Below are positions 154 through 42,086 of a stretch of DNA of 64,000 nucleotides, piece by piece. Both the position numbers and the translations under genes were made by a program. Source of the stretch: a virus; IMG/VR virus record IMGVR_UViG_3300046792_000213, positions 1 to 64,000 of that record; one strand, written 5' to 3'. Within the stretch, counting starts at the first letter, position 1, and every line of letters begins with the position of its first letter. The notes under the pieces are model-generated. The model searched no databases, was not told the DNA's origin, and was given only the letters and a program-made list of their open reading frames with translations.

Positions 154-606
154 CTACGCGGTGACGGTCACGCCGTACTCGGCGCGCGCCGCGACGAGCT
201 GCGCCAGCACCTGCTCGCGCAGCCGGTCGAGGTGCGCCTGCACGCTGTCGAGCACCGCCAGATACTGCTCGGGGTCCAGCGGGCCCATCGGCTCGTCGCG
301 GGACGGCTCGAACAGCACGTGCGGCACGTTGCGGCACGGGTCCGTGCTGTACGGGTCGACCTGCACCCGGGCCGACAAGATCGCCATCGACTCGTCCATC
401 CCCGGGAACACCAGGGACACCTCGTCGGCACCGTGAATCAGGTCATCCAGCATGCCGCGCTGGTCGGTGAGGTGGCTGGACGTGCAGAATTTCGGACACG
501 TCTCAACGATCTGACCGGACGGGATGATCTCCCGCAGCCACGTCCGCGGACGGGGGGCGGCGGGCGGCGAGGGCTGGGCGACGGCGGGGGTCTGCGTTAC
601 AGTCAT
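154..606 (-). CDS. Hypothetical protein, DUF6907-like (actinobacterial mobile elements)
   Basis: 150 aa ORF, AAGGAG RBS, CPxxCxxxH motif typical of this family. Confidence 0.6.
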   Translation of the reverse strand: MTVTQTPAVAQPSPPAAPRPRTWLREIIPSGQIVETCPKFCTSSHLTDQRGMLDDLIHGADEVSLVFPGMDESMAILSARVQVDPYSTDPCRNVPHVLFEPSRDEPMGPLDPEQYLAVLDSVQAHLDRLREQVLAQLVAARAEYGVTVTA

Positions 607-1397: not shown

Positions 1398-1422
1398 AAA
1401 ACCCCCGCCACTGGGGCGGGGG
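1398..1422 (-). terminator. Intrinsic terminator after gntR
   Basis: CCCCCGCC/GGCGGGGG stem followed by TTTT on the minus strand. Confidence 0.6.
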
Positions 1423-1439
1423 CTGTGGTGGTGCAGCGA

Positions 1440-2201
1440 TCAGGAAACGGGCAGGTGATAGCCCATCTTGTACAGGTGACTGGACTTCACAAGCACAGTC
1501 ACTTCGATGGGGCGTCGATCGTCGCTGTAAACGATCCGGAAGATCTCCAGGACGGGAGCGTCGCCGGGGATCTCCAGCAGCTCGTACTCCTCCGTCGTGG
1601 CCGATCGGGCGGCCACCTCGTCGACCTGCTCCCGCGGCGGGTATCCCAGCTCGGCAAGGAGAGTGGGTGAGCCGCCTCGAATCTTCCGCCGGTCAGTCAG
1701 CCGGGTGCCGCGCGCCAACTCGATTGGGTAATACGAGTGCGTCAGCTCGGCCGGCTCATCGTTCAGCAGCCCAAGTCGCGTTCTTAGGACCGCTGGAGCG
1801 CCCGCCTCGATCCCCAGGCCCCGGGCGACGCGCTTCGGGGTGGGCACCTCGCCAACCCGCAGGATCTCGTTGCTTCCTCGCTGGCCGCGTGTTGCCGCCT
1901 CCGTGGTCCACCGGTAGGGCTCCCCCGAATCAGACGGGTTCATGTAGGAGACGGGCGTGATCGTCTGGGTTGCTCGGTCGCGGACAAAGACGCCAGTTCC
2001 AGACCGTCCTTCGAGCAGTTGCTCCGCCTTCAAGATGTCCAGGGCGCGCTGGATTGTGACGTTGGACGCCTTGTGCGCCTTGATCAGATCGTCAGTCTTC
2101 GGGATCTGATCGCCAGGCTCCAGTTCGCCGCTCATGATCTGGGCGCGGATGATGTTCGCGATGCGCTGAGCCTTGGGGCGCTTGTCCTCGGTTCGTGCCA
2201 T
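1440..2201 (-). CDS. GntR/HutC-family regulator (KorSA/TraR-like), wHTH plus UTRA
   Basis: IANIIRAQIMSGELEPGDQIP...TIQRALDILKAEQLLEGRSGTGVFV, followed by a UTRA domain; divergent from the xis/tra genes as in pSAM2-type elements. Confidence 0.85.
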   Translation of the reverse strand: MARTEDKRPKAQRIANIIRAQIMSGELEPGDQIPKTDDLIKAHKASNVTIQRALDILKAEQLLEGRSGTGVFVRDRATQTITPVSYMNPSDSGEPYRWTTEAATRGQRGSNEILRVGEVPTPKRVARGLGIEAGAPAVLRTRLGLLNDEPAELTHSYYPIELARGTRLTDRRKIRGGSPTLLAELGYPPREQVDEVAARSATTEEYELLEIPGDAPVLEIFRIVYSDDRRPIEVTVLVKSSHLYKMGYHLPVS

Positions 2202-6915: not shown

Positions 6916-7137
6916 ATGACCGCCGAAGACGCCCTCGCCGCGAACCACGACACCACGGAGACCCCCGAGTACCGGCGCCTGAACGCCGCCGTCGAGGCCG
7001 CCTACATCAACCCCAACCTGCCGGACCGGTACCGCGACCCCCGTGACCGCAAGGACGCCCACAAGCTGCGCTGCCGCTGCACCCCCTCGGAGCCCGACGC
7101 CGACGGCTACTGCCTCGCCTGCGGCTGCCAGATCTGA
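6916..7137 (+). CDS. Small Cys-rich protein
   Basis: EYRRLNAAV..A...LP; CRC...CLACGC. Confidence 0.5.
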   Translation: MTAEDALAANHDTTETPEYRRLNAAVEAAYINPNLPDRYRDPRDRKDAHKLRCRCTPSEPDADGYCLACGCQI

Positions 7138-7177
7138 CCCACCACCCGATCCGCTGACCTGCAAAGGAGATTCCACC

Positions 7178-8551
7178 GTGACCGGCCAGTCCACCAACGG
7201 GACCACCGTAAACGGCGCCATCCGGCCCCCGCGCGTGCCTGTGCTCGGGGACTGGCAGCCGATACGCCTCGGCGGCGTTCCCGCCATGATCACCGAGCCC
7301 GAGCCCGCCCCCGAGCCGATCGTCGAGCCCGTGACCGTCCCCTCCGACCCTGAGCCCCGCATCGACCACATCGCGCTCGCCGAAGCCGAGCGCATCCGGA
7401 CCCTTGCCGAGGCCGAGGCCGATGCAATCCGCGCCAAGGCAGTCGAGGAGGCCCGTAAGCAGCGCGTCATCAACGACCGTGCCGAGCGGAAAGCCGCCGA
7501 AGAGTCCGCAGCGTCTGCGGCCCGCATCGCCGAGAGCAACCGGCGCAAGACCGAGGCAGAGCGCACCACCGCCGACGCCGACAAGCAGGCCGCCGAGCAG
7601 CAGGCCGCCGAGCAGGCCGCCGCCGCCGAGATCAAGCACGCCGATGACAAATGGCGGCTCTACGCGATCTGGTTCGCGTTCGTCTGCGGCGTCGTCAGCC
7701 TGCCTGTGCAGATGTCGTTCTTCTGGAACCCGAAGGCGCCGTGGATGGCGGCGGCCCCGCTCATGCTCGAAGGCGCGGCGTGGGTCGTCCACCGCGGGGC
7801 TCGTGCGGCTGTCGCGAACCGGCGCCCGGTGTGGCACTACCGCACCATCGTGTGGCTCCTCGCGGTCCTGGCTGCCGGGGTGAACCTGTACCACGGACTT
7901 CACTCCTTCGATATCGGCACCGCGGTTGCGACGGCGTTCGCTTCGATTGCCGGCCCCGGGGTGTGGGACCTCCACGAGCACGGCCGCATCCGGAAGCGTG
8001 ACGGGGTCCTGACCCGTCGGGAGCGCAAAGTGCAGGAGCAGGCGGAGAAGGATGCCGCCGCCGAGAAGGCCGCGCGTGAGGCTTCCGCCCGGGCGGAGAA
8101 GGACGCCGCTGCGAAGGCCGCCGAGGAGGTCACGCAGAAGCTCGCCGCGGACCGCGGCGAGAGCTTCCCCGAGGTGTGGAAGCACGCCCTGAAACTGGCT
8201 GCCGCGCTCGGCGAAACCACCGTCACCGAGGCCGTCTGGCGTCGTGCCCACAAGGACGTCGAGGGCACCGACCCGGGCGACTCCGCGGAGGCTCAGCAAC
8301 TCCGCAACAAGGCCGCGCGGCGCATGCTCGATGCTCGCGCAGACGCCCCCGAAAAGAGCGTCTGGAAGGGCACAGAAACGGTCGTAAACGCACAGCGTGC
8401 AAACCAAATGCCCCGCACTCAGCGGGGGCCCGCACGGAAGCCCCCTGTGCGCCGTGTGGGTGACACCGAGCGGTACGTCGACGCGGCCCGCAAGCAGGCA
8501 TCCATCACCGCCAAGAACGCCACCGACACCACCCCGCGAGAGGACTTCTGA
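7178..8551 (+). CDS. Spd-like (DUF2637/SpdB2-type) multi-TM coiled-coil protein
   Basis: AAAGGAG RBS plus GTG; coiled coils flank about 4 hydrophobic helices; immediately upstream of traB. Confidence 0.65.
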   Translation: MTGQSTNGTTVNGAIRPPRVPVLGDWQPIRLGGVPAMITEPEPAPEPIVEPVTVPSDPEPRIDHIALAEAERIRTLAEAEADAIRAKAVEEARKQRVINDRAERKAAEESAASAARIAESNRRKTEAERTTADADKQAAEQQAAEQAAAAEIKHADDKWRLYAIWFAFVCGVVSLPVQMSFFWNPKAPWMAAAPLMLEGAAWVVHRGARAAVANRRPVWHYRTIVWLLAVLAAGVNLYHGLHSFDIGTAVATAFASIAGPGVWDLHEHGRIRKRDGVLTRRERKVQEQAEKDAAAEKAAREASARAEKDAAAKAAEEVTQKLAADRGESFPEVWKHALKLAAALGETTVTEAVWRRAHKDVEGTDPGDSAEAQQLRNKAARRMLDARADAPEKSVWKGTETVVNAQRANQMPRTQRGPARKPPVRRVGDTERYVDAARKQASITAKNATDTTPREDF

Positions 8552-8552
8552 G

Positions 8553-10595
8553 ATGGCTATCGACCACCTGCCCGACACGAGCGTCGAGGCCGTCGCCACC
8601 GTCCCGTCGGTGCCCGTGCAGAGCCCGTTCGTCGACCCCGACTACACCCCGGCCAAGCCCGCGCCGGCCCGCACCGGGTCCGCCGCCATGGTGGTCGCGA
8701 AGGCCACCGGGCGCGGCCTCGGAACCGGCACCCGCTGGGTCGTCACCGGGGTCGTACACAGTGCGCGTCAGTGGGTCGAGCTGTACCACGACGACTACCC
8801 CCAGATCGTCGCCCTCGCGGTTGCCGAACGGAAGGCCGTCAAGGACACCGCCGAGGCAGACGCGGCCAAGCTCGTCGTGAAGCAGTGGCGCCGCGAGCAC
8901 AAGCGGCACCGCCTCCAGCACCTCGGCCGGACCAGCCTCGGCACCCTCGCCACCGGCGGCACCCTCGCCATGGGCGGCCTCATCGTCGGCGGATGGCTCG
9001 ACCTGCTCCTCGCCGGTGTTGGCCTCGGCGCCACGGCATGGCACGGGCAGCGGGGCACGGGGTCTGCGGGAATCGAAGCCGAGCCCGAGCAGCAGGCGAT
9101 CGGCGCCGCCCTGCAGGGCGATGTCGTCAACGGCGGGGAGGCGCTTCTGGAGGCGTTCGCCGCCATCAAGGTCCCCGAGGGATCCCGTGTCGTGGCCCAC
9201 CAGCCCGGCCCGGACGACACGTCGGTCACCATCGTGAACCTGCCCGCGAACTTCACCGTCACCAGCCTCAAGGCCAAGACCGAGGAACTGGCGGGCGCCC
9301 TCGGCCGCGACGTCACCATGGTCGACATCCGCAAGGCCGGCCACGCCAACCAGGCCGCGGTCTGGCTGTCCAGCCGGGACCCTTTCGAGATTCCCCGCCC
9401 GTCACCGCTGCTCACCGGCAGCGCCGCCGTGGACGCCTGGCGGTACGGCATCGCCGTCGCGTGGAACAAGCGGGGCGAGCAGATTCTGCTGCCCATCACC
9501 AACTCGAACATCCTCATCGCCGGAATGACCCGCTCCGGCAAGGGCGTTGGGGCCGCCAACCTCACCGTCGGCGCCAGCCTCGACGTGCGCATCAACCTGC
9601 GGGTGGTGCCCGGCAAGATGAACGGCGAGTGGGACGCCTACGCCCGCGCCGGCGTCGCCAGCACTTACTTCAAGCCCGACCCGAAGCGACTCCTCGCCCT
9701 GCTGGAAGCCCTCAAGGCCGACAAGAACCGGCGCGAGGCCATCCTCGGCAAGCTCGGCAAGTCCAAGATGACCGCGGACACCATCGTCAAGCTCGGCGGC
9801 ATCGAACTCCTCATCATCGACGAACTGGCTACCTACACCCGGCCCGGCCGCCCGCTGCGTGACGAGATCCTCGAAGCCCTCATCGAACTGTCCGCGGTCG
9901 CTGCCGGGGCCGGCATCCTCATGGTGCTGATCACCCAGTACCCGGAGGCCGACGTCATCCCGCAGGCGTTGGCGATGAACTGCGGCACCCGGTGGGCTAT
10001 GCGCGTCGACAACGCGGGGCAGTCCAACGCGATCCTCGGCGGTGGCGCGTCCGGTTCCGGCCGGGACGCGTCCAAGTTCGACCCGCCCCGGCCGGGGCTC
10101 GGCTGGTTGGTCAACCCGTTCGCCAGCGTCACCGACCTCGCCCGGAGTTTCGACCTCGACGAGGACGACCGCGGCGAGATCACCCTGCTCCTGGAGCGGG
10201 CGGCACGACTCCGCGACAAGGCAGGCCGGCTGGTCGGCCAGTGGGACGACCCAATCGAGGCCACGTTGCAGCAGGAGACCGGCATGTCGTCGGCCGGCGG
10301 CGGGCCGGACCGCAACGGTGTCCCCGCCCGCCTCCTGCACCTGATGGACCCGCAGCAGGCCGCCGCCCACGAGGCGCTCACCGAGTGCGTCGAGGTCATG
10401 GACGCGTTCGGCCGGGACGCGCAGGTCGAGGAGGTGGCGGTGAAGCTGGGCATGCCGACGGAGCGGCTGAGTGAACTGCTGCGACTGGCCGGGGCCGGCT
10501 CCACCGTGAAGATCAACCACCCGGAGCGCGGGCGCGTGAACGGCTACCGCCGGGGCGACCTCACCGCGCTCCTCAACCGCGCCACAGCCGCCTGA
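8553..10595 (+). CDS. traB: TraB, FtsK/SpoIIIE-family conjugative dsDNA translocase
   Basis: N-terminal TM segment, Walker A AGMTRSGKG, Walker B LLIIDEL, ITQYP, C-terminal wHTH ending GYRRGDL. Confidence 0.85.
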   Translation: MAIDHLPDTSVEAVATVPSVPVQSPFVDPDYTPAKPAPARTGSAAMVVAKATGRGLGTGTRWVVTGVVHSARQWVELYHDDYPQIVALAVAERKAVKDTAEADAAKLVVKQWRREHKRHRLQHLGRTSLGTLATGGTLAMGGLIVGGWLDLLLAGVGLGATAWHGQRGTGSAGIEAEPEQQAIGAALQGDVVNGGEALLEAFAAIKVPEGSRVVAHQPGPDDTSVTIVNLPANFTVTSLKAKTEELAGALGRDVTMVDIRKAGHANQAAVWLSSRDPFEIPRPSPLLTGSAAVDAWRYGIAVAWNKRGEQILLPITNSNILIAGMTRSGKGVGAANLTVGASLDVRINLRVVPGKMNGEWDAYARAGVASTYFKPDPKRLLALLEALKADKNRREAILGKLGKSKMTADTIVKLGGIELLIIDELATYTRPGRPLRDEILEALIELSAVAAGAGILMVLITQYPEADVIPQALAMNCGTRWAMRVDNAGQSNAILGGGASGSGRDASKFDPPRPGLGWLVNPFASVTDLARSFDLDEDDRGEITLLLERAARLRDKAGRLVGQWDDPIEATLQQETGMSSAGGGPDRNGVPARLLHLMDPQQAAAHEALTECVEVMDAFGRDAQVEEVAVKLGMPTERLSELLRLAGAGSTVKINHPERGRVNGYRRGDLTALLNRATAA

Positions 10596-41407: not shown

Positions 41408-41433
41408 GGGACTCCCCTGGGAGTAGAGGGATT

Positions 41434-41508
41434 TGGAATGCCCGGCAGGATTCGAACCCACGTCACCCGGGTTGGAGCCGGGTGTTCTCGCCGCTGAACT
41501 ACGGACAC
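41434..41508 (-). tRNA. tRNA-Trp(CCA)
   Basis: GTGTCCG/CGGGCAT acceptor, CCCGG-CTCCAAC-CCGGG anticodon arm, GGTTCGAATCC, encoded CCA. Confidence 0.85.
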
Positions 41509-41561
41509 AAGCAGGCCGCCGGCCCGCGGGGCGAAGTTCCGCGACTCGCCGGCGACCGCCC

Positions 41562-41651
41562 GAGGATGCTCTACCTACCTGAGCTACCAGCCAGACCGTG
41601 CACGATCCTGTTGTGGCCGGGCGGGACTTGAACCCGCGACCTTCCCCTTCG
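41562..41651 (-). ncRNA. Circularly permuted tRNA-like RNA (YrlA-like topology)
   Basis: 3' half (GGGGA-AGGTC-GCGGG TTCAAGT CCCGC-CCGGCCA) precedes 5' half (TGGCTGG-TA-GCTC AGGTAGGTA GAGC-A-TCCTC); all four stems pair. Confidence 0.75.
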
Positions 41652-41726
41652 TGGCAGCGACAGGATTTGAACCTGCGACCTCCGGGTTATGAGCCCGGCG
41701 AGCTGACCGACCTGCTCCACGCTGCT
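41652..41726 (-). tRNA. tRNA-Met(CAT), initiator type
   Basis: CGGG-CTCATAA-CCCG (three G-C pairs), 1:72 mismatch, GGTTCAAATCC; CCA not encoded. Confidence 0.85.
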
Positions 41727-41819
41727 TCGTTCAGGCTAGGCGCCTGCTGGCCGCCGGTGCGACCGGGTTTTGCCCCGCTGCCGGGCGCGGTGTCCGTGGG
41801 CCGGCTGGGCAGCGGGTGA

Positions 41820-42086
41820 TTAGGGGTGGCGATCGAACAGGTGCCAGACGAGGCCGTGAGGGGCGAGTGCGGTCCCCCGGTAGTGGAGAGCCGAGTCGTC
41901 GGGGAGCGGCTGGCCCGTCCCAAAGACTCGGAAGGCGCAGGTGGCCCCGGCGCTGCCGTCGCTGAATGCCCACAGCTCAACCGTGTCCGAACGTCTGGCC
42001 GCGATGTGGAGCACGTCACCCGACAGGGAAATGGTGTGCCACTGGTCATCGACGGGGATCTCGTACCGGTGGATGGCGAGCGGCAT
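41820..42086 (-). CDS. Conserved phage protein (DUF7352-like)
   Basis: IHRYEIP...FRVFGTGQPLP...YRGT...LVWHLF; GGAGG RBS. Confidence 0.65.
   Translation of the reverse strand: MPLAIHRYEIPVDDQWHTISLSGDVLHIAARRSDTVELWAFSDGSAGATCAFRVFGTGQPLPDDSALHYRGTALAPHGLVWHLFDRHP

What the first reader, a model, noticed from the sequence alone, without database searches (positions are those of the whole stretch)
41509..41651. Circularly permuted, anticodon-less tRNA-like RNA nested between tRNA-fMet and tRNA-Trp
Seen (minus strand, 5' to 3'): 4 nt (CGAA) after the fMet discriminator comes a tRNA 3' half, GGGGA/AGGTC/GCGGG-TTCAAGT-CCCGC/CCGGCCA (41647-41614). A 20-nt linker follows, CAACAG plus hairpin GATCG-TGCA-CGGTC. 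Then comes a tRNA 5' half, TGGCTGG/TA/GCTC-AGGTAGGTA-GAGC/A/TCCTC (41593-41562). The halves pair into a 7-bp acceptor stem and a 5-bp anticodon stem with U8, A14, G18G19 and the T-loop consensus intact. The acceptor end is closed by the linker and the anticodon loop is absent. A roughly 53-nt GC hairpin then runs exactly up to tRNA-Trp +1. Known: this T-arm, closed acceptor, D-arm topology is that of bacterial YrlA Y RNAs, normally encoded beside Ro60/Rsr; permuted tRNA genes are described from some algae and an archaeon. No Ro60/TROVE ORF is in this window. Inference: processing of the flanking tRNAs would release it. It may be an orphan tRNA mimic (a decoy for anticodon nucleases or T/D-elbow binders, or a hijacker of host Rsr) or a two-piece tRNA.
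Basis: partly seen in the sequence, partly recalled or inferred. Interest (0 to 1): 0.9.

Follow-up and report, generated by a model that had tools for sequence, protein, structure and literature searches.

The report
Ro60-less tRNA-mimic RNA in phage
Between two tRNA genes of a soil Streptomyces-type phage lies a conserved gene for a small RNA shaped like a tRNA written in rotated order: a relative of the bacterial YrlA "Y RNAs" that has lost their Ro60-binding handle, carries a different conserved hairpin, and occurs only in genomes with no Ro60 gene.

Summary
On the minus strand, tRNA-fMet (41726-41652) is followed by CGAA, a rotated tRNA-like core (41647-41562), a GC hairpin (41561-41509), then tRNA-Trp (41508-41434).

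[quoted passage not shown] A profile of 12 actinobacterial and phage YrlAs hits it at E=8e-12. It forms all 21 family pairs, 15 of which covary.

It is not a canonical YrlA. The terminal Ro60 handle is absent, and the 76-kb phage record has no TROVE, DUF2828 or Rsr homologue.

I found three further distinct orthologues, four loci in all: two Streptomycetaceae prophages and two IMG/VR contigs with the same sequence. All sit after the same upstream gene. All start 2-4 nt after a tRNA or tRNA-like 3' end, and all carry the same 3' hairpin. Across the four distinct sequences, 13 of 42 pairs show compensatory changes.

Both lysogen genomes lack TROVE and DUF2828, so use of host Ro60 is unlikely. 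A near-identical phage lacks the whole ~360-nt cassette.

Verdict: a real, conserved, apparently Ro60-independent variant of a known tRNA mimic. Its partner and function are unknown.

This scan has noted YrlA-like mimics in phage tRNA clusters on other DNA, and flagged this same stretch in an overlapping window.

The parts
41652..41726 (-). tRNA-Met(CAT) with initiator features and no encoded CCA. Its 3' processing would create the 5' end of the mimic.
   Evidence: ARAGORN and Rfam tRNA, 60.4 bits; sequence read.
41648..41651 (-). Spacer CGAA between the tRNA discriminator and the mimic. The equivalent spacers in the orthologues are UA, UA and CGCA.
   Evidence: alignment A6.
41562..41647 (-). 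Rotated tRNA-like core. In order: anticodon-stem 3' strand, variable loop, T arm, acceptor 3' strand, closing linker, acceptor 5' strand, D arm, anticodon-stem 5' strand. There is no anticodon loop.
41594..41613 (-). Linker that closes the 7-bp acceptor stem: CAACAG plus a 5-bp hairpin with a TGCA loop. The hairpin is kept with different stem letters in the G145 prophage (GCAG/CTGC).
   Evidence: 4 of 5 pairs have double changes.
41509..41561 (-). Conserved 3' hairpin. Lower stem 41557-41548 with 41523-41514; GAG bulge 41547-45; upper stem 41544-39 with 41529-24; loop AACUUCGCC 41538-30. It starts directly after the anticodon-like stem and ends at tRNA-Trp +1.
   Evidence: 3 double and 3 one-sided changes; the loop is near-invariant in 4 lineages.
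41434..41508 (-). tRNA-Trp(CCA) with encoded CCA. RNase P cleavage at its +1 would create the 3' end of the mimic.
   Evidence: ARAGORN and Rfam tRNA, 59 bits.
41410..41768 (-). The whole RNA cassette, present or absent as one block. A phage whose neighbouring gene is 94% identical has about 25 nt here instead. Boundaries are approximate.
41820..42086 (-). Upstream neighbour, a DUF7352 protein of 88 aa, followed by a GC hairpin. It is not part of the RNA and serves only as an anchor for synteny.

Best explanation
It is a real gene for a roughly 143-nt non-coding RNA of a temperate, Streptomyces-type phage.

Shown:
- Its core is a homologue of the tRNA-like 'effector' domain of YrlA Y RNAs. It keeps the YrlA-specific T-stem and D-stem letters and all tRNA tertiary positions.
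- It lacks the terminal stem (handle) through which YrlA binds Ro60/Rsr.
- It carries instead a conserved, covarying 3' hairpin that begins directly after the anticodon-like stem.
- It belongs to a small family of four distinct sequences at the same syntenic place in related (pro)phages. Every member starts 2-4 nt after a tRNA or tRNA-like 3' end. Two sequences, including this one, end at the +1 of another tRNA.
- None of the records has a Ro60 gene, and neither of the two whole host genomes does.

Inferred:
- The RNA is co-transcribed with the tRNAs and cut out by the tRNA 3' endonuclease (RNase Z type) and RNase P.
- The hairpin stacks on the anticodon-like stem, giving the same L-shape-plus-rod outline as YrlA but with the chain ends in another place.
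- RNase P may also nick the 7-bp acceptor stem, as it does in Mycobacterium smegmatis YrlA.
- The RNA works without Ro60 as a stable tRNA-shaped ligand. The elbow (T and D stems) would engage whatever factor YrlA engages, and the hairpin loop would serve as a second binding site. The effect would be to titrate or recruit a tRNA-recognising host factor during infection or lysogeny.
For: Homology and structure:
- Profile hit at E=8e-12.
- Alignment with 12 canonical YrlAs gives 94% of cells paired, 15 of 21 pairs with double changes, 0 of 500 shuffles as high, and slid controls at 33-47%.
- The T arm is identical and the acceptor stem nearly identical to a phage YrlA that lies beside rsr.

Family:
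- BLAST of the element against 401 Streptomycetaceae genomes gives two full-length hits, 77-79% identical, hairpin included.
- A covariance model of the three sequences separates them (151-172 bits) from canonical YrlAs (53 bits or less, core only).
- A pattern from the hairpin finds two more viral contigs at 84 bits.
- The four-sequence alignment gives 95% of cells paired, 13 of 42 pairs with double changes, 0 of 500 shuffles as high, and slid controls at 32-46%.

Synteny: homologues of the 281-aa upstream protein (40-57% aa identity) precede every member. The RNA, at 77-79% nt identity in the two prophages, is better kept than its protein neighbours.

Position relative to tRNAs.

No Ro60:
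- No TROVE, Rsr homologue or DUF2828 in the phage record.
- No TROVE at E up to 1 and no DUF2828 in either lysogen genome.
- No TROVE in the two viral contigs.

No canonical handle: a model of 21 actinobacterial Y RNA hairpins finds nothing at these elements.

Against: - There is no expression or end-mapping data. No RNA run holding the stretch was listed.
- The family has only four distinct sequences. The last alignment was fitted to the model's structure, which inflates pairing.
- The viral records are 56-94% complete, so a partner gene could lie off-contig.
- A very divergent Ro60-like protein would escape the Pfam models.
- The closest phage lacks the cassette, so it is dispensable.
- In the G112 prophage the hairpin is followed by a U-rich run and could simply be a terminator.
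- The proposed ligand or decoy role is inference only. No partner has been identified.
Confidence: 0.6

Rival explanations
1. It is still a Y RNA that works with a Ro60/Rsr protein supplied in trans by the host, by another prophage, or by an undetected divergent Ro60-like gene. The 3' hairpin would be a re-wired Ro60 docking site.
For: - The core is homologous to YrlA.
- Terminase-related phages carry rsr-YrlA cassettes.
- 81 of 151 sampled Streptomycetaceae genomes have TROVE.
- By eye, the hairpin's 5' strand (CCGGUGAGUCGCGGAUCUUC in the orthologues) resembles the canonical handle CCGGUGCGAAGGCCGCGGCUACUUC.
- Two 'TROVE-less' phages with other YrlA-like RNAs turned out to have DUF2828 Ro60-like genes.
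Against: - Both lysogen genomes lack TROVE (E up to 1) and DUF2828. The phage record lacks both as well.
- A covariance model of canonical handles and a profile of their 5' strand give no significant hit on any of the four hairpins.
- The GNCGAA-type stretch is missing.
Confidence: 0.12
2. It is a cis-acting piece of the tRNA operon with no job of its own. It could be a tRNA-shaped processing or punctuation signal plus a terminator or stabiliser hairpin that shapes maturation of the neighbouring tRNAs or insulates the downstream late genes.
For: - It is always inside or at the end of a tRNA array.
- In G112 the hairpin is followed by ACUUUCUU and then a gene.
- The cassette is gained or lost as one block together with its tRNAs.
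Against: - Keeping the YrlA-specific D and T stem letters, every tertiary position, and a near-invariant 9-nt loop plus GAG bulge across lineages whose neighbouring proteins are only 40-57% identical is more than a spacer needs.
- In the window and in L353 a tRNA follows directly, so the hairpin cannot be an efficient terminator there.
Confidence: 0.15
3. It is wreckage of ordinary tRNA genes: two neighbouring or duplicated tRNAs that each lost a half. Alternatively, it is a false YrlA hit of the tandem-tRNA kind.
For: - Chen et al. warn that tandem tRNAs mimic YrlA in searches.
- Many Rfam hits of about 42 bits in TROVE-less Streptomyces genomes look like this.
- One hit of my own model (L345) is a tandem pair of identical tRNAs.
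Against: - All 12 acceptor and anticodon-stem pairs form.
- Neither the missing 5' half nor the missing 3' half is present.
- The same truncation points recur in four lineages, with compensatory changes between the two 'halves'.
- Sequence is closer to YrlA than to tRNAs.
Confidence: 0.02
4. It is a split or permuted gene for a working, decoding tRNA.
For: The un-rotated sequence is a perfect class-I tRNA body.
Against: - No member has an anticodon loop or any sequence that could supply one.
- The anticodon-like stem continues straight into the hairpin.
- No RtcB is encoded in the phage.
Confidence: 0.01

Closest known systems
YrlA (Y RNA-like A; Rfam RF02553; Chen et al. 2014, PMC4201824; structure in Wang et al. 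2018, 10.1101/312249)
   Same: - Rotated tRNA topology with a closed acceptor stem.
- The same near-invariant T stem (GCGGG/CCCGC) and D arm (GGUAGCUCA...GGUAGAGC).
- All tRNA tertiary positions.
- A 7-bp acceptor stem, as in the M. smegmatis YrlA that RNase P cuts.
- Co-location with tRNA genes, as for D. radiodurans Yrn2-tRNA-Yrn1.
   Different: - There is no stem formed by the 5' and 3' ends.
- There is no GNCGAA-type or CCNGGUGCG...GAUCUCNGG handle.
- The ends sit at the anticodon-like stem.
- There is an extra conserved 3' hairpin.
- There is no rsr within 4 kb, in the phage, or in the lysogen genomes.
YrlB-type hairpin Y RNAs and the arrays of 2-4 Y RNAs in actinobacterial rsr loci
   Same: The 3' hairpin is a bulged GC helix with a pyrimidine-rich loop, and it lies next to a tRNA-like module.
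   Different: It fails a covariance model built from 21 such hairpins. It lacks their invariant ends.
Phage Ro60-Y RNA particles (mycobacteriophage Ro60/YrlA; Thermus phage phiLo Ro60 with Yrl1/2, PMC12135203)
   Same: Phage-encoded, Y-type RNAs thought to act on host RNA-handling enzymes such as PNPase.
   Different: Those phages encode the Ro60 protein. This lineage does not.
Permuted tRNA genes (Cyanidioschyzon merolae and other algae; one archaeon), from my own knowledge
   Same: The 3' half is encoded before the 5' half.
   Different: Those genes yield complete tRNAs with an anticodon loop after circularisation. This element has no loop and no sign of such processing.
Other tRNA mimics (tmRNA tRNA-like domain, plant-virus TLS, mascRNA), from my own knowledge and 10.1101/312249
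   Same: L-shaped mimicry that recruits tRNA-processing enzymes.
   Different: Those have native strand order and a free CCA-type 3' end. This one is rotated and its acceptor end is closed unless RNase P opens it.

Membership tests
YrlA (RF02553) | tRNA-like domain in rotated order (V, T arm, closed acceptor stem, D arm) with conserved T/D stem letters and covarying stems | tested here: met
   All 21 pairs form. Family covariation is 15 of 21 pairs.
YrlA (RF02553) | Reaches Rfam's gathering score (69 bits) | tested here: not met
   40.6 bits on model positions 23-86 only. Caveat: the genuine actinobacterial YrlAs I examined (beside rsr in the checked cases) also score only 38-56 bits, so this cut-off is a poor test here.
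YrlA (RF02553) | Long stem formed by the 5' and 3' termini, carrying the conserved Ro60/Rsr-binding motif | tested here: not met
   The 5' side is occupied by a tRNA 4 nt away. The handle model R1 finds nothing at the element in the window or in the orthologues. The 5'-handle profile is not significant.
YrlA (RF02553) | Encoded within about 4 kb of, and on the same strand as, a Ro60/Rsr (TROVE) gene | tested here: not met
   There is no TROVE, Rsr homologue or DUF2828 in the 76-kb record. There is none in lysogen genomes G112 and G145. There is no TROVE in the L352/L353 records.
YrlA (RF02553) | Bound by Rsr in vivo; carries Psi55 and D modifications | not testable with these tools
   Needs immunoprecipitation and modification mapping.
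tRNA (RF00005) | Cloverleaf in native order with a 7-nt anticodon loop | tested here: not met
   Not called by ARAGORN or Rfam tRNA in its native order. It is called only after in-silico un-rotation with a borrowed loop.
Permuted/split tRNA genes | The two halves together encode a complete tRNA, including the anticodon loop, plus processing motifs for re-joining | tested here: not met
   No loop sequence in any of the four members. No RtcB in the phage.
YrlB-like hairpin Y RNA (for the 3' hairpin only) | Ends CCNGGUGCG... and ...GAUCUCNGG, with an internal GG.U.CUUC motif | tested here: not met
   Model R1, built from 21 sequences, gives no hit on the hairpins. Only an eye-level resemblance of the 5' strand remains.

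The most novel reading that the evidence does not exclude
This is the RNA half of an undescribed, Ro60-independent particle. The YrlA tRNA-like 'effector' module has been cut loose from the Ro60 handle and fused to a new conserved hairpin handle (GAG bulge plus A(U/A)CUUCGC(A/C) loop). It has been wired into tRNA operons so that RNase Z and RNase P make its ends. The hairpin would dock an unknown phage or host protein, while the tRNA-shaped end captures a tRNA-recognising enzyme or defence factor. That second target would be one acting on the elbow or acceptor end rather than on the anticodon.
Probability: 0.4. Interest if true: 0.75.

Novelty: new variant of a known kind. Interest (0 to 1): 0.6.

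Why it matters
What the tRNA-like domain of bacterial Y RNAs does, and what it binds, has been open since 2014. The published catalogue only accepted candidates within 4 kb of Ro60, so it could not see Ro60-free versions.

This is a small, conserved family in which that domain survives, with covariation, in phages and lysogens that have no Ro60 at all. If it holds up, the domain has a function of its own. It would also be a minimal, genetically tractable version in Streptomyces prophages that can be used as bait to find the partner.

It also adds a case to the growing list of non-tRNA passengers in phage tRNA arrays. These are candidates for roles in the tRNA-centred arms race between phages and bacterial defences.

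Tried and rejected
1. Exact or degenerate patterns for the element with its own T arm, acceptor and D arm found nothing window-like. Results were 0 hits in IMG/VR, only canonical YrlAs or tandem tRNAs, and two canonical YrlAs in JGI metagenomes.

2. BLAST against GenBank phages gave only tRNA pieces. The Nocardia phage NTR1 hit is an ordinary tRNA-Met.

3. Terminase-based relatives gave little. Most contigs stop short of the locus. The Streptomyces prophages L104 and L105 (about 75% identity) have no tRNA or YrlA near the terminase gene.

4. Sequencing runs: no RNA holder was listed. Contigs of a second and a third soil or rhizosphere run carry identical pieces with no variants, so they give no covariation.

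5. I tested the idea that the tRNA-fMet 3' end supplies the missing 5' strand of a Ro60 helix. Only 3 bp are possible, so I rejected it on reading.

6. I tested the idea that the 3' hairpin is a circularly permuted Ro60-binding helix or a YrlB-like Y RNA. It is not supported by model R1 or by the 5'-handle profile. It is kept only as a minority rival.

7. I tested the idea that 'orphan' YrlA-like RNAs are common in complete TROVE-less phages. Of three such genomes, one has a clear DUF2828 Ro60-like gene and one a weak match. They are therefore not good orphans, and they keep a terminal stem, unlike this family.

8. The 12-nt repeat CCGGCGGCC(T/A)GC occurs upstream of both tRNAs. It is too short to interpret.

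9. The 522-aa protein at 6983-8551 with no family was checked as a possible hidden Ro60. No Pfam, PHROG or Atlas lead was found.

10. A class-level sample of 150 actinobacterial genomes gave no window-type hit.

11. None of the 26 window ORFs and 9 ORFs of the record's 3' end scanned against Pfam matched such a family.

Full report
**What is in the sequence**

On the minus strand the region reads as follows:
- tRNA-Met(CAT) at 41726-41652
- CGAA
- a tRNA 3' half at 41647-41614
- a 20-nt linker at 41613-41594
- a tRNA 5' half at 41593-41562
- a hairpin at 41561-41509
- tRNA-Trp at 41508-41434

The upstream tRNA has initiator features. The two halves pair into a 7-bp acceptor stem and a 5-bp anticodon-like stem, and the usual tRNA tertiary positions are intact.

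The minimum-free-energy fold gives exactly this picture. Un-rotating the halves in silico with a borrowed anticodon loop yields a sequence that ARAGORN calls a normal tRNA.

**The setting**

The window is most of a 76.4-kb IMG/VR virus record, 94% complete and 69% GC. It encodes terminase, portal, tape measure, lysin, Ku, a DNA methylase and integrases.

The nearest terminases in named genomes are in Streptomyces prophages, at 75% identity.

The RNA cassette lies between a DUF7352 gene and a lipoprotein gene, about 1.9 kb upstream of the terminase gene and on the same strand.

**What the core is**

- Rfam's YrlA model matches 41563-41645 at 40.6 bits, covering only model positions 23-86, which is the tRNA-like domain. 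That score is not diagnostic by itself. Tandem tRNAs reach it, as Chen et al. warned and as many hits in Streptomyces genomes show.
- Stronger evidence comes from comparison with genuine YrlAs that I collected beside TROVE genes in related phages, other phages and Streptomyces.
- A sequence profile of twelve of them hits the element at E=8e-12 in the whole window. The two flanking tRNAs reach only 14 and 12 bits.
- In a joint alignment the element forms all 21 stem pairs. The family shows 94% pairing, with 15 of 21 pairs carrying compensatory changes. No shuffle reached this, and slid controls give 33-47%.
- The T arm is identical, and the acceptor stem nearly so, to a YrlA beside rsr in a phage whose terminase is 76% identical.
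- The description of YrlA as a circularly permuted tRNA with a closed acceptor stem is already in print (10.1101/312249).

**What it is not**

Canonical actinobacterial Y RNAs, whether tRNA-like or plain hairpins, begin CCNGGUGCG..., contain CGG.UACUUC, and end ...GAUCUCNGG. Their two ends pair to form the Ro60 handle.

The window element has a tRNA 4 nt upstream instead of a 5' arm. A covariance model of 21 such handles finds nothing here or in its orthologues.

The whole virus record has no TROVE, no homologue of a phage Rsr, no DUF2828 Ro60-like domain and no RtcB. Scans of its larger unannotated proteins turned up nothing Ro60-like.

**Orthologues**

- A BLAST of the 143 nt against 401 Streptomycetaceae genomes returned two full-length matches, hairpin included. 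They are G145 at 79% identity and G112 at 77%.
- A model built from the three sequences scores them at 151-172 bits. Canonical YrlAs beside TROVE score 53 bits or less, and on the core only.
- A pattern from the hairpin then found two IMG/VR contigs with the same sequence, scoring 84 bits.
- In every case a homologue of the 281-aa upstream protein precedes the RNA, at 40-57% aa identity. These are therefore related (pro)phages with the RNA at one syntenic place.
- The RNA starts 2-4 nt after a tRNA: Gln in G112, Asn in L352/L353, fMet here. In G145 it follows a degenerate tRNA-like element instead.
- In the window and in L352/L353 a tRNA follows the hairpin directly.
- Over the four distinct sequences, 95% of cells pair and 13 of 42 pairs show double changes: 4 in the acceptor stem, 4 in the linker hairpin, 3 in the 3' hairpin. 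No shuffle reached this, and slid controls give 32-46%. This alignment is fitted to the model. The earlier MAFFT alignment of three sequences already showed 5 double changes.
- The hairpin's GAG bulge and its loop A(U/A)CUUCGC(A/C) are nearly invariant.

**Ro60 independence**

The two lysogen genomes (7.3 and 8.5 Mb) have no TROVE hit even at E=1 and no DUF2828. The two viral contigs have no TROVE either. By contrast, 81 of 151 sampled Streptomycetaceae genomes do have TROVE. All partial YrlA hits I checked in those genomes lie within about 1.5 kb of it.

Two lysogens is a small number. By chance both would lack TROVE about one time in five. Together with the missing handle, though, it makes use of host Ro60 unlikely.

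**Gain and loss**

One phage has a DUF7352 protein 94% identical to the window's and matching flanking DNA. It goes straight from the upstream hairpin to the lipoprotein gene's ribosome-binding site. The whole ~360-nt cassette, tRNAs included, is therefore an indel. Two more distant relatives with the same gene order also lack it. The RNA is thus accessory: conserved where present, dispensable for the phage as such.

**Mechanism**

Shown are the anatomy, the homology, the conservation and the absence of Ro60. The rest is inferred.
- Co-transcription with the tRNAs, and excision by the tRNA 3' endonuclease and RNase P, follow from the exact abutment to tRNA ends in four lineages.
- The hairpin begins with no spacer after the anticodon-like stem, so the two could stack. 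That would recreate the YrlA outline with the chain break moved.
- The YrlA-specific T and D stem letters are the site proposed for the unknown YrlA effector, and they are fully kept here. I therefore favour a trans-acting, tRNA-shaped ligand with a second binding site in the hairpin loop.
- With no anticodon loop it cannot be a decoy for anticodon nucleases. Targets that read the elbow or the acceptor end remain possible, but none is identified.

**Comparison and novelty**

The element works like, and descends from or shares ancestry with, YrlA. It fails three of YrlA's defining features: the handle, the Ro60 neighbourhood, and the terminal stem.

I found no paper describing Ro60-free YrlA-type RNAs among those searched. 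Chen et al. excluded them by design.

Earlier notes of this scan report YrlA-like mimics in phage tRNA clusters on other DNA, some with Ro60-like DUF2828 or DUF7873 partners. They mention that the idea of Ro-independent tRNA-like RNAs has been in print since 2016. I did not verify that paper.

I rate the element a new variant of a known kind.

Noticed in passing
L083:1489-1860, L158:405-648, L160:4586-5048, L162-L189 (Streptomyces and phage rsr loci): Actinobacterial rsr loci carry arrays of 2-4 Y RNAs. All share the ends CCNGGUGCG... and ...GAUCUCNGG but have interchangeable interiors: a full tRNA-like domain, a T arm only (for example L188:1360-1469 and L189:1641-1733), or a plain hairpin. 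None of those examined reaches Rfam's YrlA gathering score (best 56 bits), so Rfam under-detects them.
   Followed up: partly
L221, + coordinates about 1418-1527 (minus strand): A complete 43-kb phage with terminal repeats has no TROVE and no DUF2828. It carries a T arm, a closed 7-bp acceptor stem and a D arm, followed by what looks like a whole anticodon arm. Rfam YrlA scores it at 39 bits. It could be a YrlA-like RNA or a genuinely permuted tRNA gene.
   Followed up: no
L294:5852-6477 (-), 187-276 (-), 1809-1916 (-): A large phage tRNA array contains a ROOL RNA (323 bits), a partial OLE-like hit (53 bits) and a YrlA-like RNA (41 bits). The record is 67% complete and has no TROVE.
   Followed up: no
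L269 about 12940 (+), with L310/L312; L202:4298-4358, with L311: Two complete jumbo or large phages without TROVE have YrlA-like RNAs inside their tRNA arrays. Elsewhere in each genome there is a DUF2828 gene, clear in one (43 bits) and weak in the other (17 bits). This is consistent with DUF2828 acting as an alternative Ro60-like partner.
   Followed up: partly
L345:184-326 (-): Two identical tRNA genes in tandem give a false 'permuted tRNA' signal. The acceptor 3' strand of copy 1 pairs with the 5' strand of copy 2. This is a trap for this kind of search.
   Followed up: yes
window 41511-41522 and 41746-41757: A 12-nt direct repeat, CCGGCGGCC(T/A)GC on the minus strand, lies shortly upstream of both tRNA genes. 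The copy before tRNA-Trp is the 3' strand of the conserved hairpin.
   Followed up: no
window 6983-10595 (+): A 522-aa protein with no known family sits next to an FtsK/SpoIIIE-like protein, an arrangement typical of Streptomyces conjugative elements. The left part of the record may belong to another mobile element or to the flank of the prophage. A second integrase lies at the far end of the record (L313:11860-13197).
   Followed up: partly
L351 about 10020-10090 (minus strand; G145 prophage): Directly upstream of the G145 orthologue lies a short tRNA-like element with acceptor strands GTGCTGC/GCAGCAC and a T arm. ARAGORN does not call it. It may be a minimal tRNA-shaped processing signal.
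   Followed up: no
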